Assembly (NCBI GenBank): GCA_964456585.1
Contig: CAYWBT010000002.1
Coordinates: 1-57,135 of the forward strand
From: an uncultured bacterium
Lineage (GTDB): Bacteria > Latescibacterota > Latescibacteria > Latescibacterales > Latescibacteraceae
Direction of reading: 5' to 3'
Length of the DNA: 57,135 nucleotides
Shown here: one piece after another, positions 15,306 to 31,401 of the stretch
Numbering within the stretch: the stretch's first letter is position 1
How the letters are laid out: each line of letters opens with the position of its first letter
Made by a program: the position numbers and the translations under genes
Notes under the pieces: generated by a model
Databases searched by the model: none
Seen by the model: only the letters and a program-made list of their open reading frames with translations
What the model was told of the DNA's origin: nothing

Positions 15306-15489
15306 TTACCATGGATAGAAACCGGTAGTATTTTCTCCATGGTGACAGAGGTCATAATTCTTGCGGTATTTTTCCGGCAGAATGACCGGGTGAAAAAAAA
15401 TTACCATCTTCATGCTCTTTTTTGTAAGAACATTAAACCATCTCAGATACTCCCACGTCTATACTCAAAATGAAAGGATAACATCCCCC

Positions 15490-16386
15490 ATGAAAATATC
15501 GATCGAGAACCTGAGCAAATTTTACAAAAACGGTACGGTAGCTCTTAAAAATGTCAATCTCGAGATCGAGAGCGGCATATTCGGTCTTCTCGGTCCGAAC
15601 GGTGCGGGAAAAACGACGCTCATGAGCATTCTGGTCACCCTGCTCGATCAGTCCGAGGGGCGGATAACGGTCGACCAGTACGACCTGCGGAAAAATCGCC
15701 GTGAGATCCGCGCCATGCTCGGATACCTGCCCCAGGAGTTCACCATGTTCTCACGGCTGAAAACGTGGGAATTTCTCGATTACGCGGCCAGGCTCGCCGG
15801 AGTAAAGTCGATAAATGACCGGAAACGAGCGGTCGAAGAAATGCTCGAAAATGTCGGTCTCTACGAAGCGCGGGACCGGAGTGCCAACAAGCTCTCGGGT
15901 GGCATGAAACGCAGGCTCGGTATAGCACAGGCACTCATCGGCCATCCCAAGATCGTCATAGTCGATGAACCGACAACGGGGCTTGATCCTGAGGAGCGGC
16001 TCCGTTTCAGGAACCTGCTTTCTGACATGAGCCGTGAGGATATCATCATTATCCTTTCGACTCATATTGTCGGGGATATTTCCAGCACGTGCGATAACAT
16101 GGCCATGCTCAACCGTGGCGAGTTGGTTTTCAACGATTCACCAGAGGTGCTCATCGATCAGGCGAGAGGGCATGTCTGGCTTATCGAGGTCGACGACAGC
16201 AGGCTCGAGCTGGTCAAGGCGAAATACCCGGTCATAGCAACCATACCATCCGAGAAGGGCTGGGAAGTCCAGGTGGTGAGCGAAACGCTCGATGGTTATA
16301 ACGGTCAACCGATTGAGCCAAATCTTGAACACGCGTTAGTTTATTTCAAGGAACACCAACCGGCCGAATCCTGGGAAGCGCAGTAA
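15490..16386 (+). CDS. ABC transporter ATP-binding protein (ABC-2 type partner, with C-terminal accessory domain)
   Basis: ORF 15412..16386. The ATG at 15490 follows AAAGGA. Walker A GLLGPNGAGKTT, Q-loop LGYLPQE, signature LSGGMKRR, Walker B IVIVDEPTTGLD, H-loop LSTH. Confidence 0.9.
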   Translation: MKISIENLSKFYKNGTVALKNVNLEIESGIFGLLGPNGAGKTTLMSILVTLLDQSEGRITVDQYDLRKNRREIRAMLGYLPQEFTMFSRLKTWEFLDYAARLAGVKSINDRKRAVEEMLENVGLYEARDRSANKLSGGMKRRLGIAQALIGHPKIVIVDEPTTGLDPEERLRFRNLLSDMSREDIIIILSTHIVGDISSTCDNMAMLNRGELVFNDSPEVLIDQARGHVWLIEVDDSRLELVKAKYPVIATIPSEKGWEVQVVSETLDGYNGQPIEPNLEHALVYFKEHQPAESWEAQ

Positions 16387-16448
16387 AAAAGCGTGCCCGG
16401 ACATGTACAAACGTACGTACGAACTCCCGATATTGAGAGGTGACATAC

Positions 16449-19400: not shown

Positions 19401-19865
19401 CTCCTCCGGAATACCGTGGAGGAGGAATTCACGGGGCTGAATTTCTGGCATCCTCCCTCAAAATGGAGTGCCGCAGTCAACAATAATTCGTACGGAAAGT
19501 ACCGACACTCCACGCACTTCAAGAAGTCCGGTGACGGCAGTCAATTGGTTCGGTGGAAAGCGGACATTCCCGAGACCGGCAAATATGATGTCTACTACTA
19601 TACCCAGAATTTCGCCCAGCAAGGCATGTTCCGCAGGGGGGGGCGGGGACGATTCGGCAATACGGATATCCTCGCAGATCTTTCTTTCACTGTCTATCAT
19701 GATGACGGTACCGAAGAAGTGACGCTGGATCTCAAGGACATTGAGGAGGAGTGGAGCTATTTGGGCACCTATTATTTCTCCCAGGGTCAGGCGAAAATTG
19801 AACTGTCCGACAAATCGAAGGGACGGATCGTCTATGCCGACGCGGTCAAGTGGAAGAAAAAATAG
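16449..19865 (+). CDS. Fusion protein: ABC-2 type permease (about 7 TM), M1 aminopeptidase-like domain lacking HExxH, and a golvesin C-terminal-like domain
   Basis: ORF 16440..19865. The ATG at 16449 lies 8 nt after GAGAGG. About 290 aa of hydrophobic N-terminus. A central region resembles the M1 N-terminal beta and catalytic folds (LELEHHGDTIAVTAEMTLENT..., YPFKRFTVIEVP). C-terminus is GKYDVYYY...VYADAVKWKK. Confidence 0.7.
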   Translation: MLSLYNILSIALYEIKTLSRSWFFRIFSVVTIVILIFLNTVLFITPQSAPWMLRGVSSSIPYLNLMLLNVVQAIIGIFMASDFFKYDRKLDSTQVIYMRSMTNADYVLGKALGVCILFLFINVLILILSFVFNMFFADVPVVFQMYLYYPLLISFPTLVYIFGLSFISMAIFKSQAVTFIILLGYIASTLFFLGGKFHHLFDYMAYQVPLLYSDFVGFGVVSPILIHRGMYLFLGLGFTFATVLFLKRLPQSVIMNRISLILSIALIVGAGALGFVYVSQITSGKELRREMAALNKLSADEPKAAMATCRLELEHHGDTIAVTAEMTLENTTSVPLDTFIFSLNPALIVAQATMGSTDVEYTRNLHLVSVKPTTPLQPGDTANVTLSYHGRIDEEACYVDIDEDIREENYRLFLYNIDKRYAFITPDYLLLTPEALWYPSTGVPYGSGYPNMQNRDFVNYELTVSTAQDLTAVSQGAMERTGEGAFRFRPESPLPQISLSIGQYELKSVTVDSTSYNLYVLKGHDYFSQYFTTIGEKLTESIKEVRQDYERSINGIYPFKRFTVIEVPIQFYAYERAWTLGQEVVQPEQVLLPEKAVMLFSADFKRSRYGFERRGRRDATQTPEEMEQQLFQRFVQNTFITDFFGRRFGSVRRSMGRQGGLSFQRIFFSFLPSFSTNYNVFPNFFTFTTYFHSENYQIFNIILEHYLKGKLENRNVGFMRFIQGISSEELANSALAKETLPEILADPEKKDLVYDVLKMKSDYLFGLIKAEVGAEAFEEFLTEFIAGHTFRTVEVDEFIRAVYENFLLDLEPRLQQWYHVKELPAFLVTGLKCTEIIDFDATRYKVVFTVSNPEPIEGLIRISAMTGGGGRGMGGRGGMSFGGPTPADEEFYILKAHQAKEIGMVLDQPPRILQFNTYISQNIPYQFDQNPGEPQTDDFSEIFEGEQILDDLPLFLEPGEIIVDDEDDGFEILTQQKENAIKKFLLRNTVEEEFTGLNFWHPPSKWSAAVNNNSYGKYRHSTHFKKSGDGSQLVRWKADIPETGKYDVYYYTQNFAQQGMFRRGGRGRFGNTDILADLSFTVYHDDGTEEVTLDLKDIEEEWSYLGTYYFSQGQAKIELSDKSKGRIVYADAVKWKKK

Positions 19866-19921: not shown

Positions 19922-21418
19922 ATGAAGAATCAAACGCTTACCATGCTTCTTACCAGCATACTCATCACAGCGGTTGTCGTGGCCGCATCTGCAACAATAT
20001 CATATTCTGCAGAGCTGTACACACTGGACACAGCGCTCTCGACCGCAATGGAAAACAGCCCTGATATCAAGCAGACCGAGCTCTCTCTCGAACGGAGCCG
20101 TGAAACGCTCAAAGCCCGGCAGGCGGCATTGAAGTCACAGTTCAGCCTGCAGATAAATCCCTTCTCATTCAACCGCGACCGGACGTTCAGCGAGTTCTTC
20201 TCCACCTGGAATTCAACCGATACGAAGGCATCAGGAGGAACATTCCGGGTGAACCAGCCGCTCGAGTGGACGGACGGAACCATTGCGTTGACCAACAATT
20301 TCAGGTGGCAGAATTCGTATTCCGAGTATACGGACGTTCGGAAGAAAACGTACAATAACAACCTCTATATTGCCTACGAACAACCGCTCTTCACCTACAA
20401 CCAAATCAAACTCGATACGCGTGAGCTCGAGCTCAATTTGGAAAATACTCTCTATACCTATACCATCCAGAAGATGGCGCTGGAACAGTCGGTCACCCAA
20501 GCGTTTTTCGACGTTTTCCAGCGTAAAATGGACCTCGATATCACGGCTGATGAACGCGTGAACCAGCAGCAGAGTTACGATATCATCAAGAACAAGGTCG
20601 ATGCCGGACTCTCGGCCATGGAGGAACTCTATCAGGCCGAACTGAACCTCGCCAGCAGTGAGCTGGCTGTCCAGAACCAGCAGGAATCACTGGATAATGC
20701 CCTGGATTCCTTCAAGGTACTGATCGGCATACCGATATCCTTTGACATAATGGTCGATGCGAGTGTCGTATTTGAGCCGGTCGACATCAATCTCGATACG
20801 GCACTGAACAGCGGCCTGAAGAACCGCCTGGAACTCCGGCAGCGCGACATCAACATTGAGAGGGCACTGCAGAATCTCACCCGAACCGCCGCGCAGAATG
20901 AGTTCAAGGGGAGTTTGACCCTGTCGTACGGCATCACCGGGGAAGACGAACAGTTCGGCAATGTCTTTGAAACACCGACGAAAAAGCAGGCTGTCGGCAT
21001 TTCCTTTGATATTCCCCTCTGGGACTGGGGCGAGAAGAAATCGCGCATGAGGGCATCCGAACTCAGTATTGAACAGGAACACATTTCTCTCGAAGATCTT
21101 CGTAACAACATTATACTTGCCATCAGGCGGGCGCACCGCAACCTGCTTAAGTTCAACAACCAGATCGACATTGCTGAACAGAATGTGCGAAACGCTGGAC
21201 TCACTTACGATATCAACCTGGAACGCTACCGGAACGGCGATCTGACCAGCATGGATCTCAACCTGTATCAAGCCCAGCTTTCCGCGAGAAAAAGTAGCCT
21301 GGTGCAAACCCAGATCAGTTACAAGCTGGCGCTGCTCAACATGAAAATCCTATCGCTCTGGGATTTTGAAAAGAACATGCAGGTTCTGCCGGATAACATT
21401 TTCAACGAAAATAAATGA
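19922..21418 (+). CDS. TolC-family outer membrane efflux protein
   Basis: Signal peptide, then the two-repeat OEP layout. Starts LDTALSTAMENSPDIKQTELSLERSRE and has a later repeat LDTALNSGLKNRLELRQRDINIERA ... ERYRNGDLTSMDLNLYQAQL. Confidence 0.85.
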   Translation: MKNQTLTMLLTSILITAVVVAASATISYSAELYTLDTALSTAMENSPDIKQTELSLERSRETLKARQAALKSQFSLQINPFSFNRDRTFSEFFSTWNSTDTKASGGTFRVNQPLEWTDGTIALTNNFRWQNSYSEYTDVRKKTYNNNLYIAYEQPLFTYNQIKLDTRELELNLENTLYTYTIQKMALEQSVTQAFFDVFQRKMDLDITADERVNQQQSYDIIKNKVDAGLSAMEELYQAELNLASSELAVQNQQESLDNALDSFKVLIGIPISFDIMVDASVVFEPVDINLDTALNSGLKNRLELRQRDINIERALQNLTRTAAQNEFKGSLTLSYGITGEDEQFGNVFETPTKKQAVGISFDIPLWDWGEKKSRMRASELSIEQEHISLEDLRNNIILAIRRAHRNLLKFNNQIDIAEQNVRNAGLTYDINLERYRNGDLTSMDLNLYQAQLSARKSSLVQTQISYKLALLNMKILSLWDFEKNMQVLPDNIFNENK

Positions 21419-21491
21419 GAACATAATCGAACGGGATGACATCATAGTTTTGAAACACGTCATTGAGACATTCTTACCACAGGAGCATACG

Positions 21492-22544
21492 GTGAAACGA
21501 GCACTTTGTATTCCACTACTCATTATCGTTCTTATTGCGGCATGCGGCAGTCCTGAATCGCAGGTTGAAACGGATATCGCAACGCCGGTCTCGGTTCAGG
21601 AAGTCACCTTGAAACCGATCGAGGAGTATGTCACTGCGACAGGTACCGTGAATCCGACACAGGAGGCCGCGTTGAAATCAGAGATGGCCGGATTCTACCA
21701 CCTTGCGATCAATCCACGGATGAAAAAGTCCTTTGCATTCGGCGACATGGTCAAGAAGGGGGATCTCATCATCAAACTCGAAAATCCCGAGCAGGAAAAC
21801 AGCATCAGGATCGAATCTCAACGGCTGAATCTCGACATTTCGAAAAGTGAACACGAGAAACAGCAATCCCTCTACGAGAAGGGCGGTGTCACACTTCGCG
21901 AGCTGAAGGATTCTGAACGGTCGTACCTCGACGCCCAGTATTCGTTCGACAACGCGAACATCCAACTCGAACAGATGAAGGTGATCGCTCCTTTTAACGG
22001 TATCGTCGCTGATATACCCTACTACACCGAGGGAATCAAGGTCGATGCAGGCGCCGACATGGTGCATATCATGAACTACGAGAAGCTTACCATGGAAATC
22101 AACCTCCCCGGAAAGCTCCTCGGGCGCATTTCCGAAGGTCAGCCGGTACGGGTGACCAATTATACGGTGCCGGATAAAAAGCTCAGCGGGATTGTCACCC
22201 AGGTATCTCCCGTCCTCAATCCGGAAACACGGACGTTCAAGGCCACGGTTGTTGTCGAAAACAACGAGCTCATCCTGCGGCCGGGAATGTTTATCAAGGC
22301 CGATGTCATCGTCGCACAGAAGGACAGCACCATTGTCATTCCAAAGGACATCATCATCTCCCGCAGGAACAGGAAAACGGTATTCGTGGTTGAGCGCGGC
22401 ACCTCGATCGAGCGCAGTATCGAGACCGGACTTGAAAATCCCGATGAAGTCGAGATCACCGGCGGGCTGGAAGTCGACGAGCGGCTGGTGGTCGAGGGAT
22501 TCGAGACACTGCGGAACCGTTCAAAGGTGAATATCGTCCGCTGA
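21492..22544 (+). CDS. Efflux RND periplasmic adaptor (membrane fusion protein), lipoprotein
   Basis: ORF 21366..22544 overlaps tolC. The in-frame GTG at 21492 follows AGGAGCA and gives VKRALCIPLLIIVLIAACGS (lipobox). HlyD/AcrA-like: ATGTVNP, coiled-coil region, IAPFNGIVAD, G.V..VSPVLNPETRTF, VPKDII. Confidence 0.8.
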   Translation: MKRALCIPLLIIVLIAACGSPESQVETDIATPVSVQEVTLKPIEEYVTATGTVNPTQEAALKSEMAGFYHLAINPRMKKSFAFGDMVKKGDLIIKLENPEQENSIRIESQRLNLDISKSEHEKQQSLYEKGGVTLRELKDSERSYLDAQYSFDNANIQLEQMKVIAPFNGIVADIPYYTEGIKVDAGADMVHIMNYEKLTMEINLPGKLLGRISEGQPVRVTNYTVPDKKLSGIVTQVSPVLNPETRTFKATVVVENNELILRPGMFIKADVIVAQKDSTIVIPKDIIISRRNRKTVFVVERGTSIERSIETGLENPDEVEITGGLEVDERLVVEGFETLRNRSKVNIVR

Positions 22545-22735: not shown

Positions 22736-25700
22736 ATGAATAAAATAGCCCGCTTCTCAGTCGAATATCCGATTACGGTCTTTATGATCGTTCTTGCTGT
22801 ACTCTTGCTCGGTTACATTTCGTTCAGCAAACTGGGAATGGATCTGTTTCCCGATCTCAACAATCCGAGAATATTCGTCGAGATCAAGACGGGAGAGCGT
22901 CCTCCCGAAGAGATCGAAAAACAGTTTGTTAAGAACATCGAGGCACTCTCGATCCAGCAGAAGGGGGCGGTGAAGGTCTCCTCGATCATCCAAACTGGGG
23001 CAGCGCTGGTAACCGTCGAATATGCGTGGAACACAAACATGGACGAGGCGTTCCTCAACCTTCAGAAAACGCTCACCTCCTTCACCCAGAACGAGGAGAT
23101 CGACGAACTGGTCATCAGTCAGCACGATCCCAATGCCACACCGATTATCACCCTCGGCCTGTCACATCCGGACATCACTGACATGGATGAACTGCGGCGG
23201 ATTGCGGAAAACTATCTGCGCAACGAGTTGATCCGCATGGAGGGAATCGCCGATGTGGGAATTATGGGCCAGGAGGAGAAGGAAGTCGTAATTTCCACGA
23301 ACAATTACCTGATGAAGGCGTACGGTGTGACTCCATCAACCATCGCCAGCCGCATCGATGAGTATAACCGCAATGTCTCCGGCGGCTCTATTGTCGAGAT
23401 GGGATTGAACTATATCATCAGGGGAGTCGGTGAATTTAACTCTCTCGAAGATATCAGCAATCTCATCATCACCTACAAAACTCCCGAGGTACTCACCAAC
23501 ACCGCTTCTGCTACCGGGGAAAAAACACCGGTCTTCCTGAAGGATATCGCCGAGATCGAGTTCCGGAACAAAAAGCCGGATAACATTGTCCGGATCAATG
23601 GTAAGCGGTGCCTCGGTCTCTCCATCTATAAGGAGACGAAGTTCAATACGGTGAAAATCGTCGATACATTCTTCGAGAACCTCGACGTACTCCGCCGCGC
23701 TCTGCCCGGTTATGAACTGACCATCATCCAGAACCAGGGAGCGTTCATTACCAATGCGATCGATGAAGTCAAGCAGACCGCCCTGATCGGCATCTTCTTC
23801 GCGGTGCTCATCCTGTTTGTATTCCTCCGGCGAATAAGCGCAACCATCATCATCAGCCTCGCCATCCCCATCTCGATCGTCGCCACGTTCAACCTGATGT
23901 ACTTCCGCGGGCTGACGCTGAATATCATGACGCTTGGGGGGCTTGCCCTTGGCGCCGGCATGCTCGTTGATAATGCAATCGTGGTCATGGAAAGCATCTT
24001 TCGTAACCTCGAATCCGGGCTTACGCTCAAGGAGGCGTCGGTCGCAGGCACCTCGCAGGTTGCAGGGGCGATTACCGCTTCCACGGTGACCACGATTGTC
24101 GTGTTCCTTCCCATCGTATACCTGCACGGGACCGCTGGTGAACTCTTCAGGGAGCAGGCATGGACCGTGGCATTCTCGCTGTTGTCATCGCTCGTGGTGG
24201 CGATCCTTGTCATACCGATGTTGAGTACGAAAATCCTTAGGGGAACAGCGAAAACCATGTTGAGAGAACGATCGATCAGGTTCCCCCGTTACAAGAAATT
24301 CCTCTCTGCCGTTCTCGGAATGCGCTGGCTGGTCATCACGGCTGCGGTGGTACTCACCTTCGCCGCCTTCCGTATGATCCCCCTGATCGGAAGCGAATTT
24401 ATGCCCAAGACAGACCTCAACGAATTCTCGATCGATATAAAACTCCCGGAGGGCACCGAACTCTTCCGCACCGAAAATGTGGTCGATAATATCGAAAAGA
24501 ACATCCAGGGAGTCCTGGGGAATAACGTAAAAACAATCTACAGCACCATCGGCCCCAGCGAGGTAGAAAGCACCGATGAGAGCGATGCCCTCAAGGATGA
24601 GAACTCTGCGACGATTAAACTTATCCTCACCGACAATACCCTGATGACGCCAAATATGGTCTTCCAGCATTTGGACGCCATACTCTCGGTAATTCCCGAT
24701 CTCGAATCGAATATCACCCAGGAAGAAACCGTCCTGCAACTGACCCTCGGGACAGAAGCCGCGCCGATCGCTGTTGAAATCAGGGGGGAAGACCTCGAAC
24801 TACTCCAGGAATTGACCGAACAGGCGCGGGAGCAGTTGAGCGCCATCGAAGACCTCTATAACATCGAGACCAGCTTCGACGAGGGCAGGCCGGAGATCGA
24901 AATCCTTCTCGATCGTACACGGGCCGGCCTAAACAATGTGAGCATCAATCAGCTCGGCACAGAGATCCGTAACCAGCTCATGGGAACAAGCGCCGGAAAG
25001 TGGGAGAGCGAGGGTGAAATGCGCGACATCACCATCGAACTGCCGAAAGTCGGGGCACATCAGCTCGAGGACATTGTGATTGCCGCCAACAATCGCGATA
25101 TCTCGCTCTATGAGATTGCAAACATTGGCTACGCTCTGGCACCAAAGGAGATACTGCGGGAAAACCAGACACGCGTGGGAAAGATTACCGCCAATCTGAA
25201 GAAGACACAGCCGCTCGACCATGTTGTCAGTGAAATCAATGAGAAAATGAGCAGTCTCTCGTTTCCTCCGGACTACACGTTCGAGATAACCGGGGAAGAG
25301 CAAAAACGCCGTGAGGCCTTCGACAACCTGAAATTCGCCCTGATCCTGTCGGTGATTCTCGTCTACATGGTCCTGGCATCGCAATTCGAATCGCTCATCC
25401 ACCCGTTTACCATCCTGCTTTCGATACCGCTCGCCACTGTCGGCGCTCTCCTGATCTTTCTCATACTCGGCAGATCGCTCAACATCATGGCATATATCGG
25501 CATCATCATGCTTGCCGGTATAGCGGTCAATGACTCGATCATCCTCGTGGATGCGGTCAACCAGTTGAAGAACGAGGGACTCTCGCGTTTCGATGCGATC
25601 ATCGAGGCCGGGCAACGGCGTATTCGACCGATTATCATGACCAGTCTGACAACCATCCTGGCGCTCCTGCCGCTGACCTTCGGTTTCGGCGAGGGAGCAT

Positions 25701-25834
25701 CACTCCGGTCGCCGATGGCACTCGCGGTGATTGGAGGTTTGATTACCTCCACGCTGCTGACGCTCGTTGTTATACCCTGTGTGTACTCTGTTATGGACGC
25801 ACTCGGGACGCGGTTGTCTTCACTTCTCAGTTAG
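22736..25834 (+). CDS. RND efflux transporter permease (AcrB/HAE1-like), 1032 aa
   Basis: Typical start FSVEYPITVFMIVLAVLLLGYISFSKLGMDLFPDL. 12-TM, two-large-loop layout. GMLVDNAIVVMESI and GIAVNDSIILVD motifs in TM4/TM10. Confidence 0.9.
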   Translation: MNKIARFSVEYPITVFMIVLAVLLLGYISFSKLGMDLFPDLNNPRIFVEIKTGERPPEEIEKQFVKNIEALSIQQKGAVKVSSIIQTGAALVTVEYAWNTNMDEAFLNLQKTLTSFTQNEEIDELVISQHDPNATPIITLGLSHPDITDMDELRRIAENYLRNELIRMEGIADVGIMGQEEKEVVISTNNYLMKAYGVTPSTIASRIDEYNRNVSGGSIVEMGLNYIIRGVGEFNSLEDISNLIITYKTPEVLTNTASATGEKTPVFLKDIAEIEFRNKKPDNIVRINGKRCLGLSIYKETKFNTVKIVDTFFENLDVLRRALPGYELTIIQNQGAFITNAIDEVKQTALIGIFFAVLILFVFLRRISATIIISLAIPISIVATFNLMYFRGLTLNIMTLGGLALGAGMLVDNAIVVMESIFRNLESGLTLKEASVAGTSQVAGAITASTVTTIVVFLPIVYLHGTAGELFREQAWTVAFSLLSSLVVAILVIPMLSTKILRGTAKTMLRERSIRFPRYKKFLSAVLGMRWLVITAAVVLTFAAFRMIPLIGSEFMPKTDLNEFSIDIKLPEGTELFRTENVVDNIEKNIQGVLGNNVKTIYSTIGPSEVESTDESDALKDENSATIKLILTDNTLMTPNMVFQHLDAILSVIPDLESNITQEETVLQLTLGTEAAPIAVEIRGEDLELLQELTEQAREQLSAIEDLYNIETSFDEGRPEIEILLDRTRAGLNNVSINQLGTEIRNQLMGTSAGKWESEGEMRDITIELPKVGAHQLEDIVIAANNRDISLYEIANIGYALAPKEILRENQTRVGKITANLKKTQPLDHVVSEINEKMSSLSFPPDYTFEITGEEQKRREAFDNLKFALILSVILVYMVLASQFESLIHPFTILLSIPLATVGALLIFLILGRSLNIMAYIGIIMLAGIAVNDSIILVDAVNQLKNEGLSRFDAIIEAGQRRIRPIIMTSLTTILALLPLTFGFGEGASLRSPMALAVIGGLITSTLLTLVVIPCVYSVMDALGTRLSSLLS

Positions 25835-25939
25835 GAATGAAGAAGAATCCACGACGGACAGATCCCGGAGTCCGTTTCCCGGCTTGCCCTCCGGGCGAAC
25901 CAGTTCATGTACGATCGATATGAGAGAAACCGTGATATC

Positions 25940-28900
25940 ATGAAATTTATTATAACCCGAAAAGTTTTCATCAGCATGCTGTTTATCGGCGTTACCCTCC
26001 TCGGGTACATTTCATATTCACAGCTGCCGGTGGAACTCCTTCCCAATGCAGAAGTCCCCTTCCTGATCGTCATGGTGAACAGTACGATCGATGTGGATCC
26101 CGATTACCTGGAGAAGGAGGCGATTATTCCGCTCGAGGGAGCGGTCAGCACGCTGGAGGGAATCGACGAAATCGAATCCACCATACAGAGTCAACGCGGA
26201 ACAATCTACGTCTACTACAACCAGAATGTCGAGATCAAGTACGCCTACCTGAAACTCCAGGAGCGGGTGAACGAGATCAAATCCTCCATCTCGGAGGAAT
26301 TCCGCATCAACGTGGTCAAGATCGATACCGAGCGGCTGTCAAACCAGTTCATGACCCTCCAGGTCAGGGGGAGCGGCGGGCAGGAACGGATTCGCTCGAT
26401 TGTCGACGAAAAAGTATCCCCGGAACTTCAGAGCATCGATGGTATCGCAAACGTAGAAATCGTGGGGGGAAATGTCCGGGCACTCGAAATTATTCTCGAT
26501 GAAGACGCCTACAGCCAATACAACATTACGCCCGCGAGGATCAGGTCGCTCATTTCCCAGAATACCCAGAGTAAAACGTTCCTCGGCTGGGCAGGAGAGA
26601 ACGACCGGCGGTACGTTGTCAACCTGCTTACCGAATACACCGATGTGAGCAACATCGAGGACATTATTGTCGTTCCCGAAGGTCCGATCTTGCTCAAAGA
26701 TATCGCGGACATCAACTTCGGTCAGAAGGAACAAGAGTCCATCAGCCGCGTCAATGGCATGGAGGCGGTCTCCATCAGCCTGGTCCGTGACTCGCAAACC
26801 AATCTCATTGAACTCTCCCATACCACAGTAGTACGTATCAGCGAACTGAACGAACGGCTCGCATCCCAGGATATCGAAATCGTCATCCAGACCAACACCG
26901 CCGCGGATGTGGAGGAGAATATCAACCTCATCATCGAACTCGCGCTTATCGGCGGCGCATTGGCGGTGGTCATTCTTTGGTTCTTCCTCAGAAACCTGCG
27001 GCTTGTGCTTATCATGATGCTGGCGATTCCGATCTCGGTGTTTACCGCATTTAACTTCTTTTACGCGTTCGGCATAAGCCTCAACAGCTTTACCCTCGTG
27101 GGAATCGCTCTCGCAGTGGGCATGCTCCTCGATAACAGCGTGGTTGTCCTCGAGAACATCTACCGGCTCGTAGAGAACCGAAAAGATAGCGATACCGCGG
27201 TTATTCAGGGGACACGCGAGGTCTGGCGCGCCATACTCGCGGCAACCCTCACCACGATAACCGTGTTTCTGCCATTCGTGTTCTCCACAAACTACCTGGT
27301 AAGACTCATCGGACGCCATGTCGGCGTTTCAATCATCTCGACTCTCCTCGTCTCACTCGTGGTGGCGTTGCTCCTCGTACCGATGGCAACCCACTTCTTC
27401 CTCAAGCGGCGGCCCCGTGAACGGAGCTTTAAGTTTCACCGTATATCACAGCGGAACCGCCTGGTTCAGATATATACCCTCCTGTTGAAAACAGCAATGC
27501 GGTACCCGGCACAGACGATCATCGGTGCGGTCGTTGCCTTTTTTGCGAGTATTCTCATCTGCATGTCTTTGAGCATGACAGTGCCGAGCGAGATCGATCT
27601 CACGGAGTTCAACCTGTATGTGACCATGTCGCGCGGTTCCACCCTCGAAATGACCGATACGATCGTTGCGGACTTCGAAGAAAAAATCTCGGGTATAGAG
27701 GAGATTAAGGATATCGTCTGCACTATCTATGACGAAGAAGCGAACATCACGGTTATTCTGAAAGACGATTTTGAATCGATCGCGAACAGAACCATCGCGC
27801 AGATTAAAAACGAAATCGAGGAACAGGCTGATAATTTCCGCGCGGCCGACATCAGCATGTCCGAGCCCCAGTCGAGCAGGCGTTTCGGGGGCGGTATGCG
27901 GAGTAATCCCATGGCATCCCTGGAACGGATGTTCGGGATCGGCAGTCCCCAGGAAAAGGTCGTGGTCAAGGGCAACGACTTCGGCATGATCCGCACGGTC
28001 GCAGAAGATGTCAAGTACTACATCGACAATCTCGAGTCGATAAACAACGAGGCACGGTTGAGTATATCGGGAAACCGCCCGGAAATACACCTGCTCTTCG
28101 ACAACCAGCTTCTGAGCCTGTACGACATCTCCCTGAACAACATTGCCGCGGAGTTGTCATCGTTCCAGCGAGAGTCAACCACCAATATGAAGTTCAAGCA
28201 GGGAACCGAGGAATACGACATCATCATCAAAACCAATGAGCCCGAAGAGGAAAAAACGTTCGCGGATCTCAAGGAACTCCCGGTACCAGATCGTGCAGGA
28301 GCGCCCCATGTCCTCGAAAACGTGAGCCGGATCATCTACTCGTACGGCACCTCGGAAATTACCCGCATCAACCAGGAGAAGCAGGTCGAGGTATCGTTCA
28401 GTTTCCTGGAAGACATCACCGATTCCAAAACGCTCCTCGGCGAATCGCGTGAAGAGGTCGAGGACCTTATCGCCAGCATAGCGCTTCCGCCGGGTGTCGC
28501 GGTCGAGCTGGTTCACGATGAAACTGAGTACAACGAGTTCTACTACCTTATCGCTGCGGCCTTTATCCTGATTTACATGATTCTTGCCTCGGTGTTCGAA
28601 TCCCTCTCGACCCCGGTTGTCATGATGTTCACAATCCCCCTCGCCGCGATCGGGGCGTTCTGGGCGCTGATTTTCACCGGCAATTCGATCTTCAACGCCA
28701 ACTCGCTCATCGGGCTTCTCATACTCCTGGGGGTGGTGGTCAATAACGGGATTATTCTCATCGACTATACCCGTATACTTCGTGTGCGCGGGCTCGGCCG
28801 GACGAGGGCGCTCATGATGGCCGGCCAAGCGCGTGTTCGTCCCATTCTCATCACCACGATCACGACAATCTTCGCCATGCTGCCCCTCGCCATGGGAAAT

Positions 28901-30673
28901 ACTGAGCAGATATCGCGCATCGGCGCGCCGTTCGCCATTACCGTGATCGGTGGTCTTGCGCTGAGTACGTTGTTTACGCTGGTCTTTATCCCGACCGTCT
29001 ACTCGGGGATGGAGATGGCGATCGACTGGCTGCGGAATCTCTCCTGGAAAATGAAGCTTCTCCAGGTCTTCCTGTTTATAACCGGCGGCCTGCTCGTCTA
29101 TCTCTATATCGAGAGTGTACTCTGGCAGTTTGCCTACCTGTTCTTCCTCGTGATGGCAGTCCCCGGCGGAACCTACTTTGTCATGAACAGCCTACGCCGT
29201 GCACAGAGTGATGTTGTCGGACAGGAGAAATCGCTCATCATCACCATCAGGCAAACCGTGAAGATATACGACAACTATAGCAGGTTCGTGCGCGAATGGA
29301 AGAAGGGGGAAAGGCTCGAGCGGCTCTACGGCCGGGTGAAAGATTATCGGTCATGGCGTGATTTTGCCGCGTTCCAGTGGCAGATCCCCCTCCTCGGATT
29401 TCTGGTTTATTTCACCTACTGGTATCTGGAGAGCAATTTCTGGCAGTTCGTTCTCTCGCTCGTGGCGTACTTCTACGTGTTTCTCCTGCTGATGCCGATC
29501 CGCAGGTACCTCGAAAATCGGGCCGACCAAACGGGCAGGGATATTCACCGCCGTGACGGTCAGCTCCTCTACCACCTCATCCTGTGGGGGGTTCCCGGTC
29601 TCAATCTGTGGTTTTTCTCCACCCGGAATTTCAAACCCGGTATACTGGCTTTTATCGCCATCGCCTGGGTCGCCACCCTTGGGATTTACACCATATCGAA
29701 CCGCCTCCATGCGGGCAGGGTCAACATTATGCGGCTGACCGGCCGATTAGCAAATCTCCGGAAAAATATCTACCGATTCGTGCTCTTCATCCCGGTGATC
29801 GGAAGAAAGAAAAATCCGTTCAACGCCCTCGATGGTGTCTCGCTCGAAATCGGAAGCGGCATGTTCGGTCTTCTGGGACCGAACGGCGCCGGTAAAACAA
29901 CCATAATGCGTATCATCTGCGGTATATTGAATCAGACGATGGGAACCATTTCTATCAACGAGAACGATTACCGCACGAAACGCGAAGAGCTCCAGGGTCT
30001 CATCGGCTACCTGCCGCAGGAATTCGGAACCTATGAAAATATGACTGCATACGAATTCCTTGACTACTTAGCGATCCTCAAAAGCATCTATGACAGTGAG
30101 AAACGGAAAAATATTGTGAACTACGTGCTTGAGTCAGTCCATCTCGACGACCATAAACATCAGAAGATCAACTCATTCTCGGGAGGCATGAAACAGCGGG
30201 TTGGTATCGCGCTGACCCTTCTCCACCTTCCCCGGATCCTCGTGGTGGATGAGCCGACTGCGGGACTCGACCCCCGAGAGCGCATTCGCTTCAGAAACCT
30301 GCTCGTCGAACTGAGCCGCGACAGGATCGTGATATTCTCCACCCACATTATCGAGGATATTTCCAGTTCCTGCAACAAGCTCGCCGTACTCAACCGCGGC
30401 GCCCTCTACTACATCGGCAAACCTGCCAAAATGATCGACTCCGCCAGGGGAAATGTCTGGCAGTTCGTCGTGAGCGAGCAAGAGTTCGGAACCTTGCGGC
30501 ATGAGATCAGAATCGTGCACCACATGAAGTTCGATAAGGGAATCAGGATTCGCTGCCTTGCCGAAACGAAACCGCATCCGGAAGCGATCACGGTCAATCC
30601 AACCCTGGAAGATGCCTACCTGTGGCTTCTTGGCGAAGTTCCCCAGGCTGTGCGAGCGGAGGATACGGTATGA
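25940..30673 (+). CDS. Single-ORF fusion: complete RND efflux permease, about 6 additional TM helices, and a C-terminal ABC transporter ATP-binding domain
   Basis: Uninterrupted ORF 25907..30673 with a likely ATG at 25940 (MKFIITRKVFISMLFIGVTLLGY...). RND core to about 29030 (GMLLDNSVVVLENI, GVVVNNGIILIDY). Hydrophobic hairpins from about 29040 to 29760. Then Walker A GLLGPNGAGKTT (29867-29902), LIGYLPQE, FSGGMKQR (30176-), ILVVDEPTAGLD, FSTH. Confidence 0.85.
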   Translation: MKFIITRKVFISMLFIGVTLLGYISYSQLPVELLPNAEVPFLIVMVNSTIDVDPDYLEKEAIIPLEGAVSTLEGIDEIESTIQSQRGTIYVYYNQNVEIKYAYLKLQERVNEIKSSISEEFRINVVKIDTERLSNQFMTLQVRGSGGQERIRSIVDEKVSPELQSIDGIANVEIVGGNVRALEIILDEDAYSQYNITPARIRSLISQNTQSKTFLGWAGENDRRYVVNLLTEYTDVSNIEDIIVVPEGPILLKDIADINFGQKEQESISRVNGMEAVSISLVRDSQTNLIELSHTTVVRISELNERLASQDIEIVIQTNTAADVEENINLIIELALIGGALAVVILWFFLRNLRLVLIMMLAIPISVFTAFNFFYAFGISLNSFTLVGIALAVGMLLDNSVVVLENIYRLVENRKDSDTAVIQGTREVWRAILAATLTTITVFLPFVFSTNYLVRLIGRHVGVSIISTLLVSLVVALLLVPMATHFFLKRRPRERSFKFHRISQRNRLVQIYTLLLKTAMRYPAQTIIGAVVAFFASILICMSLSMTVPSEIDLTEFNLYVTMSRGSTLEMTDTIVADFEEKISGIEEIKDIVCTIYDEEANITVILKDDFESIANRTIAQIKNEIEEQADNFRAADISMSEPQSSRRFGGGMRSNPMASLERMFGIGSPQEKVVVKGNDFGMIRTVAEDVKYYIDNLESINNEARLSISGNRPEIHLLFDNQLLSLYDISLNNIAAELSSFQRESTTNMKFKQGTEEYDIIIKTNEPEEEKTFADLKELPVPDRAGAPHVLENVSRIIYSYGTSEITRINQEKQVEVSFSFLEDITDSKTLLGESREEVEDLIASIALPPGVAVELVHDETEYNEFYYLIAAAFILIYMILASVFESLSTPVVMMFTIPLAAIGAFWALIFTGNSIFNANSLIGLLILLGVVVNNGIILIDYTRILRVRGLGRTRALMMAGQARVRPILITTITTIFAMLPLAMGNTEQISRIGAPFAITVIGGLALSTLFTLVFIPTVYSGMEMAIDWLRNLSWKMKLLQVFLFITGGLLVYLYIESVLWQFAYLFFLVMAVPGGTYFVMNSLRRAQSDVVGQEKSLIITIRQTVKIYDNYSRFVREWKKGERLERLYGRVKDYRSWRDFAAFQWQIPLLGFLVYFTYWYLESNFWQFVLSLVAYFYVFLLLMPIRRYLENRADQTGRDIHRRDGQLLYHLILWGVPGLNLWFFSTRNFKPGILAFIAIAWVATLGIYTISNRLHAGRVNIMRLTGRLANLRKNIYRFVLFIPVIGRKKNPFNALDGVSLEIGSGMFGLLGPNGAGKTTIMRIICGILNQTMGTISINENDYRTKREELQGLIGYLPQEFGTYENMTAYEFLDYLAILKSIYDSEKRKNIVNYVLESVHLDDHKHQKINSFSGGMKQRVGIALTLLHLPRILVVDEPTAGLDPRERIRFRNLLVELSRDRIVIFSTHIIEDISSSCNKLAVLNRGALYYIGKPAKMIDSARGNVWQFVVSEQEFGTLRHEIRIVHHMKFDKGIRIRCLAETKPHPEAITVNPTLEDAYLWLLGEVPQAVRAEDTV

Positions 30674-31401
30674 ACATGAAAACGTTTTCCCATCACGCGA
30701 CCAACATTCTGCAGGTGACATTCAAACTGTTCAGGTACAACGTGAAGGTTATCTTCGCCAACAAGTTCCCTTATTTCCTCACCGCCGCTGTCGTGATATT
30801 TCTTGGGGTAACCCTCATGAACCTGCTGAGCGCCAACGCTGATCCAAGCGAAGCGACCGGGTACTGGCTCCTGCTCGTGCCGGGTATCCTGCTCGTTTTC
30901 TACCCGACGACCTTCGGAATCCAGAACGACATCGATACCCGCATGATCGAAATACTGTTCGGTATTCCTAACTACCGCTACAAGGTATGGCTGGTGCGTT
31001 TGTTCCTGATATTTCTGGTTGCCGTCGTTATCCTGACTGTGCTCGCCGTAGTACTCTCCTACATCCTCATCGACATTCCGGTCACGAAGATGATCATTCA
31101 ACTCATGTTTCCGGTTTGCTTTATCGGCAGCCTTGCCTTCATGTTCTCGACGATCATCCGGAACGGCAACGGCACTGCCGTGGTGATGGTGCTCATCGGC
31201 ATGGTGTTCTGGTTTTCACAGGGACAGATCAGCCTCAGCGAATGGAACCTCCTCCTCAATCCATTCGGTACGCCGGAAAACGTCCTCCAGACGGCATGGG
31301 AGGAAACCATCTTCAACAACAGGATATACCTTCTGGTGGGTTCGGTGATCGCGATGCTCTGGGGACTGCTCAACCTCCAGAAACGCGAACGGTTTATCTG
31401 A
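30670..31401 (+). CDS. ABC-2 type transporter permease (6 TM)
   Basis: ORF 30622..31401. The ATG at 30670 overlaps the upstream TGA (ATGA). About six hydrophobic segments, and its size is typical of ABC-2 permeases. Confidence 0.7.
   Translation: MNMKTFSHHATNILQVTFKLFRYNVKVIFANKFPYFLTAAVVIFLGVTLMNLLSANADPSEATGYWLLLVPGILLVFYPTTFGIQNDIDTRMIEILFGIPNYRYKVWLVRLFLIFLVAVVILTVLAVVLSYILIDIPVTKMIIQLMFPVCFIGSLAFMFSTIIRNGNGTAVVMVLIGMVFWFSQGQISLSEWNLLLNPFGTPENVLQTAWEETIFNNRIYLLVGSVIAMLWGLLNLQKRERFI

What the first reader, a model, noticed from the sequence alone, without database searches (positions are those of the whole stretch)
25940..30673. One polypeptide containing a complete RND pump and a complete ABC ATPase domain
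Directly visible: a single stop-free frame of 1588 codons.
- Residues up to about 1035 form a full 12-TM AcrB-like RND permease, with both large-loop halves and the TM4/TM10 motifs GMLLDNSVVVLEN and GVVVNNGIILIDY.
- About 250 aa of hydrophobic hairpins follow.
- The C-terminus is a full nucleotide-binding domain: Walker A GLLGPNGAGKTT (29867-29902), Q-loop, signature FSGGMKQR, Walker B ILVVDEPT and H-loop.

RND pumps are proton-motive-force driven antiporters, whereas ABC NBDs hydrolyse ATP. I know of no characterised protein that joins the two covalently. The number of inserted TM segments looks even (three hairpins). That would keep the NBD cytoplasmic after the cytoplasmic RND C-terminus, so the fusion is topologically coherent rather than a random read-through.

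The NBD's natural partner appears to be the ABC-2 permease that starts in the ATGA overlap at 30670. The implied assembly is an ABC importer/exporter physically tethered to an RND-MFP-TolC duct. Possible roles, all inference:
- a two-stage relay, with the ABC-2 extracting or flipping substrate from the inner membrane and the RND expelling it through TolC
- ATP-gated regulation of the RND pump
Basis: partly seen in the sequence, partly recalled or inferred. Interest (0 to 1): 0.9.

Follow-up and report, generated by a model that had tools for sequence, protein, structure and literature searches.

The report
Natural RND–ABC fusion efflux protein
One gene really does encode a complete proton-type (RND) efflux pump joined to a complete ATP-driven (ABC) motor; the fusion is conserved in many independent bacterial genomes inside a fixed seven-gene export cassette, and I found no paper that studies it.

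Summary
ORF 25907-30673 (likely start 25940) carries a full ACR_tran domain (res 11-1033, E 1.8e-160) and an ABC_tran domain (E 4.6e-28).

It is not an assembly artefact:
- At least 120 protein clusters (55-71% id, full length) carry both domains.
- 31 independent genome loci hold it as one intact ORF. They include cultured Bacteroidota (Prolixibacter, Marivirga, Parabacteroides, Draconibacterium), Calditrichota and Latescibacterota.

1. The gene sits in a strictly conserved cassette: ABC ATPase, ABC-2 permease with a large periplasmic domain, OMF, MFP, RND1, RND2::NBD, small ABC-2 permease.
2. The true tether is one TM hairpin. The other four TMs are an insertion inside the NBD, between strand β1 (with the A-loop Tyr) and β2.
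3. Both RND paralogues have a non-canonical relay (TM4 D-N, TM10 N-N/D, no Lys).
4. The upstream permease is the 'TMD2 + periplasmic' half of a stand-alone 12-TM permease family.

Best reading (inferred): an ABC-2 exporter hard-wired to a heteromeric RND-MFP-OMF duct, working as a two-stage relay. Direct ATP coupling to the RND is not excluded. No literature on this architecture was found. Substrate unknown.

The parts
15412..16386 (+). ABC_A: stand-alone ABC-2-class ATPase. The ORF is 324 aa; the NBD starts at 'MKISIENL', about nt 15490. It is a 44%-identical paralogue of the fused NBD.
   Evidence: Pfam ABC_tran E 1.4e-32. NCBIfam DrrA/GldA. BLASTP against the fused NBD gives 44% id, E 3e-83. 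Present upstream in every locus with enough flank.
16440..19865 (+). BigPerm: one ABC-2 membrane domain (about res 1-290), a large periplasmic M1-aminopeptidase-like domain that has no HExxH or GxMEN motif, and a C-terminal Golvesin_C / xanthan-lyase CBM-like module.
   Evidence: Pfam on 14 orthologues: Golvesin_C 14/14, Peptidase_M1 11/14 (weak), ABC2_membrane_2 7/14. PDB profile search: 6f2p E 6e-9, M1 peptidases about 1e-5. No zinc motif in any orthologue. hhalign to TMD2 of stand-alone 12-TM relatives E 7.5e-13; periplasmic part E 8.5e-14.
19922..21418 (+). Outer-membrane factor (TolC-like)
   Evidence: Pfam OEP E 2.9e-45, two repeats. Conserved at this position in 30 of 31 complete loci.
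21366..22544 (+). Membrane-fusion / periplasmic adaptor protein. The ORF is drawn from a TTG; the true start is probably further downstream.
   Evidence: Pfam HlyD_D23 E 2.3e-21, HlyD_3. Conserved in the loci.
22736..25834 (+). RND1: unfused 1032-aa RND permease, 29% identical to the RND part of the fusion.
   Evidence: ACR_tran E 1.5e-208. BLASTP against RND2 gives 29% id over 1086 columns. It always lies directly upstream of the fusion. Motifs: TM4 D-N, TM10 N-N/D.
25940..30673 (+). The fusion gene (the ORF is open from 25907): RND2, then TM13-14, then a split NBD carrying a 4-TM insertion.
25937..29005 (+). RND2 domain (res 11-1033): complete 12-TM AcrB-like permease with both periplasmic loops.
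   Evidence: ACR_tran profile 1-1018 of 1021. Best solved relative is MdtB 9lyq, E 9e-65.
29045..29191 (+). TM13-TM14 hairpin (res 1047-1095): the actual tether between the RND C-terminus and the NBD.
   Evidence: AF2 helices 18-38 and 42-66 of the model, which starts at residue 1030. Hydropathy 1.7-1.8.
29240..29275 (+). NBD strand β1 plus the A-loop ('ITIRQTVKIYDN', res 1112-1123; K1119 and Y1121 invariant).
   Evidence: AF2/DSSP β-strand at model residues 83-92, pLDDT about 88. It aligns with ABC_A 'ISIENLSKFYKN'. Splicing it onto res 1303-1588 extends the GldA profile match from position 16 to position 3 and adds 4.2 bits. The NodI, LptB, GlcV and PhnC matches are extended in the same way. 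Invariance is shown.
29282..29788 (+). Insertion in the NBD β1-β2 loop (res 1126-1294): a basic amphipathic helix (RFVREWKKG motif), TM15-TM18, and a basic helix.
   Evidence: AF2 helices. K/R distribution. phmmer of res 1036-1314 against 1.84 billion representatives finds 92 hits; no full-length hit is anything other than a fusion protein. No profile similarity to ABC-2 TMDs.
29813..30670 (+). Rest of the NBD (β2 onward, Walker A at 29867-29902) plus a C-terminal domain of about 80 aa that ABC_A also has.
   Evidence: ABC_tran. Foldseek best hits TM_1403 4yer, NosF 7osf and ABCA NBDs. Motifs invariant.
30670..31401 (+). SmallTM: 243-aa ABC-2 (type V) permease with an invariant coupling-helix region (GIQNDxDxRMxE..F.IPNYRYK).
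   Evidence: AF2 pLDDT 80. The Foldseek top hits are all type V TMDs: PmtCD 9q2n, NosY, ABCG25, ABCG2, KpsM, with TM 0.5-0.64. ABC2_membrane_3 in 8 of 31 orthologues. It always follows the fusion.

Best explanation
The ORF is a genuine, ancient and selectively maintained gene fusion. It is the sixth gene of a seven-gene envelope-export cassette: ABC_A, BigPerm, OMF, MFP, RND1, RND2::NBD, SmallTM.

Shown here:
- RND2 is a complete AcrB-type permease.
- One TM hairpin (TM13-14) returns the chain to the cytoplasm, where a catalytically complete ABC-2-class NBD follows.
- The β1/A-loop strand of that NBD is separated from the rest by a family-specific 4-TM bundle.
- A type V (ABC-2) permease gene follows immediately.
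- A second ATPase/ABC-2-permease pair and a second RND paralogue are always co-inherited.

Inferred mechanism:
- The NBD does what ABC-2 NBDs normally do. It dimerises and drives ABC-2 membrane domains: SmallTM, and probably also BigPerm as the second half, with ABC_A as the second NBD.
- That module extracts or flips an amphiphilic substrate from the cytoplasm or inner leaflet to the periplasmic face.
- RND2, most likely in a heterotrimer with RND1 as in MdtB2C, picks the substrate up there and expels it through the single MFP and OMF, using the ion gradient.
- The covalent tether, and perhaps the 4-TM bundle, fixes the ABC module next to the RND trimer at a defined stoichiometry. This makes a hard-wired two-stage, dual-energy relay.
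- The substrate is unknown. The inactive M1-peptidase-like and CBM-like periplasmic domain of BigPerm suggests a peptide- or glycan-bearing amphiphile.
For: Reality and selection:
- At least 120 clusters at 55-71% id and 98-99% coverage all carry PF00873 + PF00005.
- 31 loci hold single intact ORFs of 1565-1616 aa in independent assemblies, including seven cultured strains.
- The linker is conserved with invariant residues.

Cassette:
- Identical gene order in L001-L036 across Bacteroidota, Calditrichota and Latescibacterota.

NBD competence:
- Walker A/B, Q-loop, signature, catalytic Glu and H-loop are invariant. The A-loop Tyr lies on the displaced β1.

Canonical TMD partner:
- SmallTM has a type V fold and an invariant coupling helix.

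Possible heterodimeric ABC:
- ABC_A and the fused NBD are paralogues at 44% id.
- BigPerm corresponds to only the TMD2 + periplasmic half of stand-alone TMD1-TMD2-periplasmic permeases.
- SmallTM is weakly closer to TMD1 (E 1e-3) than to TMD2 (E 0.046).

Heteromeric RND:
- Two RND paralogues at 29% id, with one MFP and one OMF. This is the MdtABC layout (PMC8277102).

Ion coupling plausibly retained:
- The TM4 Asp (D409) and the TM11 RxRPILxT motif are invariant in both paralogues.
Against: - No experiment or complex model was possible, so every functional step is inference.
- In a crude NJ tree the fused NBD is not sister to ABC_A. ABC_A groups with the stand-alone ATPases. Two separate homodimeric ABC-2 transporters are therefore about as likely as one heterodimer.
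- The similarity of SmallTM to TMD1 is marginal (hhalign probability 21%).
- Both RNDs lack AcrB's D408 and K940 equivalents, so PMF coupling cannot be taken for granted.
- The role of the conserved 4-TM insertion is unexplained by a simple tether model.
- The stoichiometry problem (trimeric RND against dimeric NBD) is solved only by assumption.
Confidence: 0.5

Rival explanations
1. ATP-driven or ATP-gated RND. Closure of the NBD dimer is transmitted through TM13-18, which pack against the RND2 transmembrane domain. ATP hydrolysis then powers or licenses the RND transport cycle and replaces or supplements a weakened proton relay.
For: - Both RND paralogues lack the canonical second Asp and the TM10 Lys.
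- The 4-TM insertion and TM13-14 are unique to this family. They are conserved with invariant Trp, Pro and Arg residues and have no other obvious job.
- The NBD is wired into the membrane at two points.
Against: - The non-canonical relay is shared by the unfused RND1, so it is not linked to the fusion.
- D409 and the TM11 Arg/Thr motif stay invariant. These are a plausible minimal relay, as in SecDF (my knowledge).
- The NBD has an ordinary ABC-2 permease partner with an invariant coupling helix, which is sufficient to explain its presence.
Confidence: 0.15
2. Co-expression or scaffolding fusion without substrate hand-over. The ABC-2 module(s) and the RND pump act on different substrates or steps. 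For example, the ABC module could sense flux, assemble or maintain the machine, or import something. The fusion would then only ensure co-localisation or equal dosage.
For: - Stand-alone versions of the ABC_A/BigPerm-type system exist without any RND.
- The fused NBD belongs to a separate NBD clade.
- Two contigs carry an in-frame stop at the junction, so covalent linkage may be dispensable.
Against: - All inner-membrane components are strictly co-inherited, even in the most divergent Latescibacterota branch at 33-36% id (L034).
- Conservation is unusually high across phyla: 54% over 1577 aa between the window and Bacteroidales.
- Only about 15 residues separate TM14 from the NBD β1 strand, which holds the NBD close to the RND.
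Confidence: 0.2
3. Artefact: a chimeric assembly join, a collapsed indel or a read-through of two adjacent genes.
For: - The window is a single metagenome contig and raw reads cannot be checked here.
- Two short contigs (L082, L083) and one MAG locus (L021) show stops or frameshifts in or near the junction.
Against: - The same uninterrupted architecture occurs in at least 120 protein clusters and 31 genome loci from different projects and phyla, including isolate genomes.
- The junction region is conserved at protein level.
Confidence: 0.01

Closest known systems
MdtABC-TolC / MuxABC-OpmB (heteromultimeric RND tripartite pumps)
   Same: Two paralogous RND permease genes lie in tandem, served by one adaptor (MFP) and one OMF. 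The best solved-structure match of RND2 is MdtB. A heterotrimer (MdtB2C) is the accepted assembly (PMC8277102).
   Different: RND1 and RND2 are only 29% identical and are not orthologues of MdtB/C. TM4 is D-N and TM10 is N-N/D instead of DD/K. One paralogue carries six extra TMs and an NBD. Two ABC-2 permeases and a second ATPase belong to the operon.
ABC-2 / type V ABC exporters with separate NBD and TMD (NosFY, PmtCD, Wzm-Wzt, KpsMT, ABCG/ABCA)
   Same: The NBD class is the same (DrrA/GldA/NosF/TM_1403-like). SmallTM has the type V fold with an interface helix and a coupling helix. BigPerm has an ABC2_membrane_2-type TMD.
   Different: The NBD is covalently attached to an RND pump. Its β1 strand is separated from β2 by a 4-TM bundle. 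I know of no type V system with either feature.
MacAB-TolC / DevBCA-HgdD (ABC-driven tripartite pumps)
   Same: An ABC ATPase is encoded in one operon with an MFP and an OMF, which implies trans-envelope export.
   Different: Those systems use MacB-type (type VII, 4-TM) permeases that bind the MFP directly and contain no RND. Here the permeases are type V, and a complete RND pair is the likely MFP partner.
Stand-alone ATPase + 12-TM (TMD1-TMD2)-M1-like permease of Flavobacteriia, Cytophagia and others. RefSeq names these 'ABC transporter permease/M1 family aminopeptidase' (from memory).
   Same: ABC_A is sister to their ATPases. BigPerm's TMD and periplasmic domain are homologous to their TMD2 and C-terminal domain.
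   Different: BigPerm lacks TMD1. The cassette adds RND1, RND2::NBD, SmallTM, MFP and OMF. As far as I could find, the stand-alone family is also uncharacterised.
CFTR NBD1 regulatory insertion (between β1 and β2)
   Same: The insertion site in the NBD fold is the same, which shows that this loop tolerates large insertions (established structural knowledge, from memory).
   Different: The CFTR insertion is a soluble disordered segment of about 30 aa. Here it is about 170 aa with four TM helices.
SecDF with SecYEG/SecA, and two-stage drug efflux (single-component pumps feeding AcrAB-TolC)
   Same: These are functional precedents for an ATP-driven step and an ion-gradient-driven RND-superfamily step acting in series on one substrate (from memory; SecDF is covered in PMC8277102).
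   Different: In those cases the partners are separate proteins with no covalent link or fixed operon.

Membership tests
RND superfamily, AcrB/HAE-1-like permease | 12 TM helices with two large periplasmic loops; full-length match to ACR_tran | tested here: met
   ACR_tran profile 1-1018 of 1021, E 1.8e-160. Aligns end to end with MexB-type and CmeB chains.
RND superfamily, AcrB/HAE-1-like permease | Canonical proton relay: TM4 Asp-Asp (AcrB D407/D408) and TM10 Lys (K940) | tested here: not met
   TM4 is LLDNS (D409 in 118/120, N410 in 116/120). TM10 is VVNNG (N946 and N947 each in 118/120). MdtB and MexB-type chains show DD and K in the same columns. RND1 shares the deviation.
RND superfamily, AcrB/HAE-1-like permease | TM11 Arg/Thr motif (RxRPILxT, holding AcrB R971 and T978) | tested here: met
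   R976, R978 and T983 are invariant in 120/120 sequences. Numbering relative to AcrB is from memory.
RND superfamily, AcrB/HAE-1-like permease | Operon partners: periplasmic adaptor (MFP) and outer-membrane factor | tested here: met
   HlyD_D23 and OEP genes lie upstream and are conserved in the loci.
RND superfamily, AcrB/HAE-1-like permease | Curated subfamily score (NCBIfam RND_permease_1/2, MdtB, MdtC, CusA) | tested here: not met
   Best is RND_permease_2 at 467 bits against a cut-off of 1250. No equivalog reaches its cut-off.
MdtABC-type heteromultimeric RND | Two paralogous RND genes adjacent, with a single MFP | tested here: met
   RND1 at 22736-25834 and RND2 at 25940 onward, with one MFP. 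Conserved in 30 loci.
MdtABC-type heteromultimeric RND | Physical heterotrimer (2:1) | not testable with these tools
   Needs co-purification, cryo-EM or a multimer prediction.
ABC ATPase (ABC-2 / DrrA-GldA class NBD) | Walker A, Q-loop, signature, Walker B with catalytic Glu, H-loop | tested here: met
   GPNGAGKT, Q1371, SGGMKQR, VVDEPT (E1449) and H1480 are invariant in 25 of 25 sequences. ABC_tran covers profile 1-137 of 137.
ABC ATPase (ABC-2 / DrrA-GldA class NBD) | Contiguous NBD fold (β1/A-loop directly followed by β2) | tested here: not met
   β1/A-loop lies at res 1112-1123 and β2 starts at about 1305. Four TM helices lie between them.
ABC ATPase (ABC-2 / DrrA-GldA class NBD) | Adjacent ABC-2 (type V) membrane-domain partner | tested here: met
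   SmallTM: Foldseek top hits PmtCD, NosY, ABCG25 and KpsM, TM 0.5-0.64 with marginal E of about 1e-2. ABC2_membrane_3 in 8 of 31 orthologues, best 7e-6.
ABC ATPase (ABC-2 / DrrA-GldA class NBD) | ATP hydrolysis and NBD dimerisation | not testable with these tools
   Biochemistry is required.
MacB-type (type VII) ABC tripartite pump | 4-TM permease with a periplasmic domain between TM1 and TM2, and the NBD fused N-terminally | tested here: not met
   The SmallTM and BigPerm TMDs are 6-TM ABC-2 type. No FtsX/MacB_PCD hit was found.
M1 aminopeptidase (for BigPerm's periplasmic domain) | HExxH-18-E zinc site and GxMEN exopeptidase motif | tested here: not met
   No HE..H or G.MEN in any of 14 orthologues. 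Only weak matches to the C-terminal part of Peptidase_M1.

The most novel reading that the evidence does not exclude
One heterodimeric ABC-2 transporter (ABC_A plus the fused NBD, with BigPerm plus SmallTM) docks through TM13-18 against an RND1(2):RND2(1) heterotrimer. The result would be a single machine with a continuous substrate path from the cytoplasm or inner leaflet to the cell exterior. ATP hydrolysis and the ion gradient would be mechanically coupled, making this an ATP-gated or ATP-assisted RND pump. That would be a transporter class energised by both sources within one polypeptide.
Probability: 0.15. Interest if true: 0.95.

Novelty: new variant of a known kind. Interest (0 to 1): 0.8.

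Why it matters
RND pumps (ion-gradient antiporters) and ABC transporters (ATPases) are textbook examples of the two separate ways bacteria energise efflux. Tripartite pumps are classified by which of the two they use.

This protein joins them covalently, and it does so in a slowly evolving seven-gene cassette. The cassette is found from gut Parabacteroides and Bacteroides to marine Cytophagales and candidate phyla (Latescibacterota, KSB1, Calditrichota, Krumholzibacteriota).

If the relay model is right, it is the first hard-wired version of 'two-stage' efflux and gives a defined complex in which to study hand-over between an inner-membrane exporter and an RND duct. If ATP is coupled directly to the RND cycle, that would be a new energisation principle.

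Two further points are of independent interest to transporter structural biologists:
- The NBD carries a membrane-embedded insertion in its β1-β2 loop.
- The RND clade has a D-N / N-N relay.

Cultured, partly genetically tractable carriers exist, so the questions are directly testable. High cross-phylum conservation hints at a housekeeping envelope function rather than drug resistance.

Tried and rejected
- **Degenerate relay specific to the fused RND.** I asked whether the fused RND had lost its proton relay while RND1 kept it. Rejected: RND1 orthologues share TM4 D-N, and their TM10 Asp is present in only 15 of 31.
- **TM13-18 as a cryptic ABC-2 membrane domain.** hhalign against four ABC-2 TMD profiles gave nothing (E ≥ 0.065). 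Foldseek matches to ABCA TMD-NBD have RMSD of about 20 Å.
- **Unfused 'linker + NBD' genes.** The linker phmmer search found no full-length hit other than fusion proteins. The two best short candidates (P0148, P0186) sit at contig starts with a single in-frame stop at the junction. It is ambiguous whether these are split genes or errors.
- **SmallTM against the BigPerm TMD.** BLASTP found nothing. hhalign gave only a colinear alignment with P of 0.01-0.03.
- **ABC_A and the fused NBD as a recent duplication.** Not supported by the NJ tree.
- **Promoter and terminator scan of the operon.** Counts were not above the shuffled expectation.
- **Rfam and tRNA scans of the window.** No riboswitch or RNA gene that could hint at a substrate.
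- **Literature.** Seven searches and one review gave no description of an RND-ABC fusion or of the permease/M1-like family.
- **Organism names.** A cluster look-up for the closest homologues returned no names.
- **NCBIfam and PDB sequence searches of BigPerm and SmallTM as single sequences.** No hits.
Full report
**1. The observation**

The window has one stop-free frame from 25907 to 30673 on the + strand, 1588 codons. For random sequence this has a probability of about (61/64)^1588. It is the likely start.

Domain matches:
- Pfam places ACR_tran on residues 11-1033, covering profile 1-1018 of 1021 (E 1.8e-160).
- Pfam places ABC_tran on residues 1308-1452, covering the full profile (E 4.6e-28).
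- NCBIfam assigns the NBD to the ABC-2 class: GldA 6.6e-51, DrrA 2e-45.

Walker A lies at 29867-29902 as stated. The ATGA overlap with the next ORF at 30670 is real.

**2. Not an artefact**

A search of 5.8 billion proteins returned at least 120 clusters with 55-71% identity over 98-99% of the length. All are about 1560-1590 aa and all carry PF00873 plus PF00005.
- Source names include Latescibacterota, KSB1, Calditrichota, Gemmatimonadota, Krumholzibacteriota and Oleimicrobiaceae.
- JGI's pipeline already names them 'AcrB / ABC-type multidrug transport system ATPase'.

A scan of species-representative genomes gave 35 loci (L002-L036) that encode the fusion. With L001 this makes 36:
- 31 hold a single intact ORF of 1565-1616 aa.
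- 4 are cut by contig ends.
- 1 (L021) is broken.

Carriers include these isolates: Draconibacterium mangrovi GM2-18, Prolixibacter bellariivorans ATCC BAA-1284, Marivirga sericea DSM 4125, Marivirga tractuosa ac6, Parabacteroides massiliensis SN4, Bacteroides sp. 224 and Maribellus maritimus 5E3.

The window itself is chromosomal. It carries SecY, LigA and tRNA methyltransferase genes. Its closest named relatives are Latescibacterota.

**3. The gene is one part of a fixed seven-gene cassette**

The gene order in the window is:

| Gene | Coordinates | Description |
|---|---|---|
| ABC_A | 15412-16386 | ABC-2-class ATPase |
| BigPerm | 16440-19865 | ABC-2 permease with a large periplasmic domain |
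| OMF | 19922-21418 | outer-membrane factor |
| MFP | 21366-22544 | periplasmic adaptor |
| RND1 | 22736-25834 | unfused RND permease |
| RND2::NBD | 25940-30673 | the fusion |
| SmallTM | 30670-31401 | small ABC-2 permease |

LigA follows, convergently. tblastn of these products against L001-L036 finds the same order in every locus with enough flank. The only exception is a missing OMF in the most divergent Latescibacterota locus, L034.

Identities to the window across these loci:

| Component | % identity |
|---|---|
| ABC_A | 49-70 |
| BigPerm | 24-45 |
| OMF | 40-54 |
| MFP | 32-57 |
| RND1 | 41-61 |
| RND2 part | 32-59 |
| linker | 26-43 |
| fused NBD | 55-70 |
| SmallTM | 24-56 |

For transporters compared across phyla this is slow, housekeeping-like divergence.

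**4. Anatomy of the junction**

AlphaFold2 on residues 1030-1588 with 33 homologues gave mean pLDDT 81.8. In protein numbering the model shows:
- TM13, 1047-1067
- TM14, 1071-1095
- a β-strand, 1112-1121
- a basic helix, 1126-1141
- TM15, 1150-1173
- TM16, 1177-1209
- TM17, 1212-1239
- TM18, 1244-1270
- a helix, 1282-1294
- the NBD sheet, from 1305

DSSP calls a strand only when it is hydrogen-bonded to another strand, and the only other strands in the model are in the NBD.

The strand sequence ITIRQTVKIYDN aligns with the N-terminal strand of the paralogue ABC_A (ISIENLSKFYKN, directly followed there by ...ALKNVNLEI). K1119 and Y1121 are invariant. Y1121 is in the position of the A-loop aromatic residue.

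As a test I spliced residues 1109-1123 onto 1303-1588. The GldA profile match then started at profile position 3 instead of 16 and gained 4.2 bits. The NodI, LptB, GlcV, PotA and PhnC matches were extended in the same way. A control with the contiguous upstream residues was not extended.

So the real RND-to-NBD tether is a single hairpin. TM15-18 are an insertion of about 170 aa in the β1-β2 loop of the NBD. From my knowledge, this is the site of CFTR's regulatory insertion.

The topology is coherent:
- The predicted cytoplasmic segments are K/R-rich: 14 in residues 1096-1149, 9 in 1271-1304, and the RRYLENRADQTGRDIHRR turn.
- The predicted periplasmic turns are IES, LES and RNFK.

The linker is family-specific. 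phmmer of residues 1036-1314 against 1.84 billion representatives found only 92 hits. Every full-length hit is a fusion of about 1570 aa with the linker at about 1030-1300. The linker has no profile similarity to ABC-2 membrane domains.

**5. The ABC partners**

*SmallTM.*
- As a single sequence it has no Pfam or NCBIfam hit.
- 8 of 31 orthologues hit ABC2_membrane_3, best E 7e-6.
- Its AF2 model has pLDDT 80. It shows an interface helix, TM1-2, a short coupling helix, then TM3-6 with short external helices.
- The model's top structural matches are type V exporter TMDs. These are PmtCD 9q2n, NosY, ABCG25, ABCG2, KpsM and Wzm, with TM 0.5-0.64, probability about 1 and marginal E-values.
- Its most conserved block, GIQNDxDxRMxExxFxIPNYRYK, covers the coupling helix.

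*ABC_A.* It is 44% identical to the fused NBD, including a shared C-terminal domain of about 80 aa.

*BigPerm.*
- It has an ABC2_membrane_2-type TMD in 7 of 14 orthologues.
- It has a weak Peptidase_M1-like region in 11 of 14, with no HExxH or GxMEN motif in any.
- It has a Golvesin_C / xanthan-lyase CBM-like C-terminus in 14 of 14 (PDB 6f2p, E 6e-9).

*Stand-alone relatives.* In 15 unrelated loci (Flavobacteriales, Cytophagales, Gemmatimonadota, Kangiellaceae) an ATPase 40-47% identical to ABC_A is followed directly by a protein of about 1200 aa. That protein has 12-13 TMs plus a C-terminal domain of about 600 aa.

Profile comparisons:

| Comparison | E-value |
|---|---|
| BigPerm TMD vs stand-alone TMD2 | 7.5e-13 |
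| BigPerm TMD vs stand-alone TMD1 | 2.3e-7 |
| BigPerm periplasmic domain vs stand-alone C-terminal domain | 8.5e-14 |
| SmallTM vs stand-alone TMD1 | 1e-3 |
| SmallTM vs stand-alone TMD2 | 0.046 |

BigPerm is thus 'half' of that permease, which suggests it needs a second TMD. SmallTM is the obvious candidate, but the evidence is weak. In a crude NJ tree, ABC_A groups with the stand-alone ATPases and the fused NBDs form a separate clade. One heterodimeric ABC-2 transporter and two homodimeric ones remain about equally likely.

**6. The RND partners**

RND1 and RND2 are 29% identical. They share one MFP and one OMF. This is the MdtABC layout, for which a heterotrimer is accepted (PMC8277102).

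A mixed trimer would also ease the mismatch between a trimeric RND and a dimeric NBD:
- One RND2 per trimer would pair with ABC_A.
- Two RND2 per trimer would give an NBD homodimer.
This is inference only.

Both paralogues deviate from the HAE-1 relay:
- TM4 is D-N, where MdtB and MexB have D-D.
- TM10 is N-N in RND2 (118 of 120) and N-N or N-D in RND1 (16 vs 15), where MdtB and MexB have a Lys.

D409 and the TM11 RxRPILxT motif are invariant in both. The deviation is therefore a clade trait, not a consequence of the fusion. It neither proves nor excludes ion coupling.

**7. Mechanism**

The best-supported reading is a hard-wired two-stage exporter.
- The NBD (with SmallTM, and possibly ABC_A and BigPerm) performs an ATP-driven extraction or flipping step at the inner membrane.
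- The RND1/RND2-MFP-OMF duct performs ion-gradient-driven expulsion.
- The tether and the 4-TM bundle fix proximity and stoichiometry.

Shown: the architecture, its conservation, the catalytic completeness of the NBD, the fold class of the partners, and the co-inheritance. Inferred: the assembly, the direction of transport, the hand-over and the energy use. I put this at about 0.5.

Rivals:
- Direct ATP coupling or gating of the RND, 0.15. It draws on the unexplained conserved TM insertion and the odd relay.
- Co-localisation without hand-over, 0.2.
- Artefact, 0.01 or less.

The substrate is unknown. The inactive peptidase-like and CBM-like periplasmic domain, the ABC-2 class (typically lipids, glycolipids, polymers and amphipathic peptides; my knowledge) and the housekeeping-like conservation point to an envelope component rather than drugs.

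**8. Novelty**

Seven full-text searches and a comprehensive 2021 review of tripartite systems yielded no description of an RND-ABC fusion or of this cassette. The proteins exist in databases only under automatic names.

Both modules belong to known superfamilies, so I rate the finding a new variant of a known kind. Three features are, to my knowledge, unprecedented:
- the covalent RND-NBD link;
- an NBD split by a transmembrane insertion;
- the composite operon.

If the two energy sources prove to be mechanically coupled, it would be categorically new.

Noticed in passing
L082:1-130 and L083:1-120 (contigs JAMHJE010019392.1 and Ga0136653_10017584): Two short metagenome contigs carry a single in-frame stop codon exactly at the RND / TM13 junction. 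Gene callers therefore report a 'linker + NBD' protein of about 500-526 aa (P0148, P0186). This could be a real split form, a pseudogene or a sequencing error. In L083 an OMF gene follows SmallTM, which is a different gene order.
   Followed up: partly
L044, L046-L050, L052, L057, L058, L062, L065, L070, L072, L074, L080: There is a separate, apparently uncharacterised family. An ABC-2-class ATPase is followed by a protein of about 1200 aa with two tandem ABC-2 membrane domains (12-13 TMs) and a C-terminal M1-peptidase-like domain of about 600 aa. It occurs in Flavobacteriales, Cytophagales, Gemmatimonadota and Kangiellaceae. BigPerm of the cassette is its TMD2 + C-terminal half.
   Followed up: partly
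window 22736-25834 (RND1) and orthologues in L001-L036: At the TM10 position after the Lys-equivalent, RND1 orthologues split about evenly between Asn (16) and Asp (15). RND2 is always Asn. Both paralogues are Asn-rich where AcrB has Asp and Lys. This might indicate a different coupling ion such as Na+ (speculation).
   Followed up: partly
window 16440-19865 (BigPerm), about res 880-900 and 1085-1100: There are Gly/Arg-rich low-complexity stretches (GGGGRGMGGRGGMSFGG; FRRGGRGRFG) inside the predicted periplasmic domain. Similar G/R-rich columns appear in the orthologue consensus. Their function is unknown.
   Followed up: no
L023 (Marivirga tractuosa ac6, NZ_CP159478.1) and L021 (Prolixibacteraceae MAG): In L023 the RND1 gene, and probably BigPerm, are split into two ORFs. 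In L021 the fusion and RND1 are broken into pieces. These could be assembly indels or decaying cassettes.
   Followed up: no
window 14721-15305 (+): A 194-aa ORF lies directly upstream of the cassette. It has a signal-peptide-like N-terminus, a repeated CISD motif and a C-terminal TM helix, and no Pfam hit. tblastn did not find it in the related loci, but their upstream flanks end inside ABC_A, so its conservation could not be judged.
   Followed up: partly
window 6163-9018 (-): A 951-aa protein combines an N-terminal RNase_T exonuclease domain with a DEAD / Helicase_C_2 (DinG-like) helicase. It is unrelated to the finding.
   Followed up: no
L037, L042 (Symbiobacteriaceae and Anaerolineae MAGs): Two NBD-like matches lie about 5 kb apart on the same strand (46% / 32% and 44% / 29% to the fused NBD), with no RND. 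This may be another multi-NBD ABC-2 arrangement.
   Followed up: no
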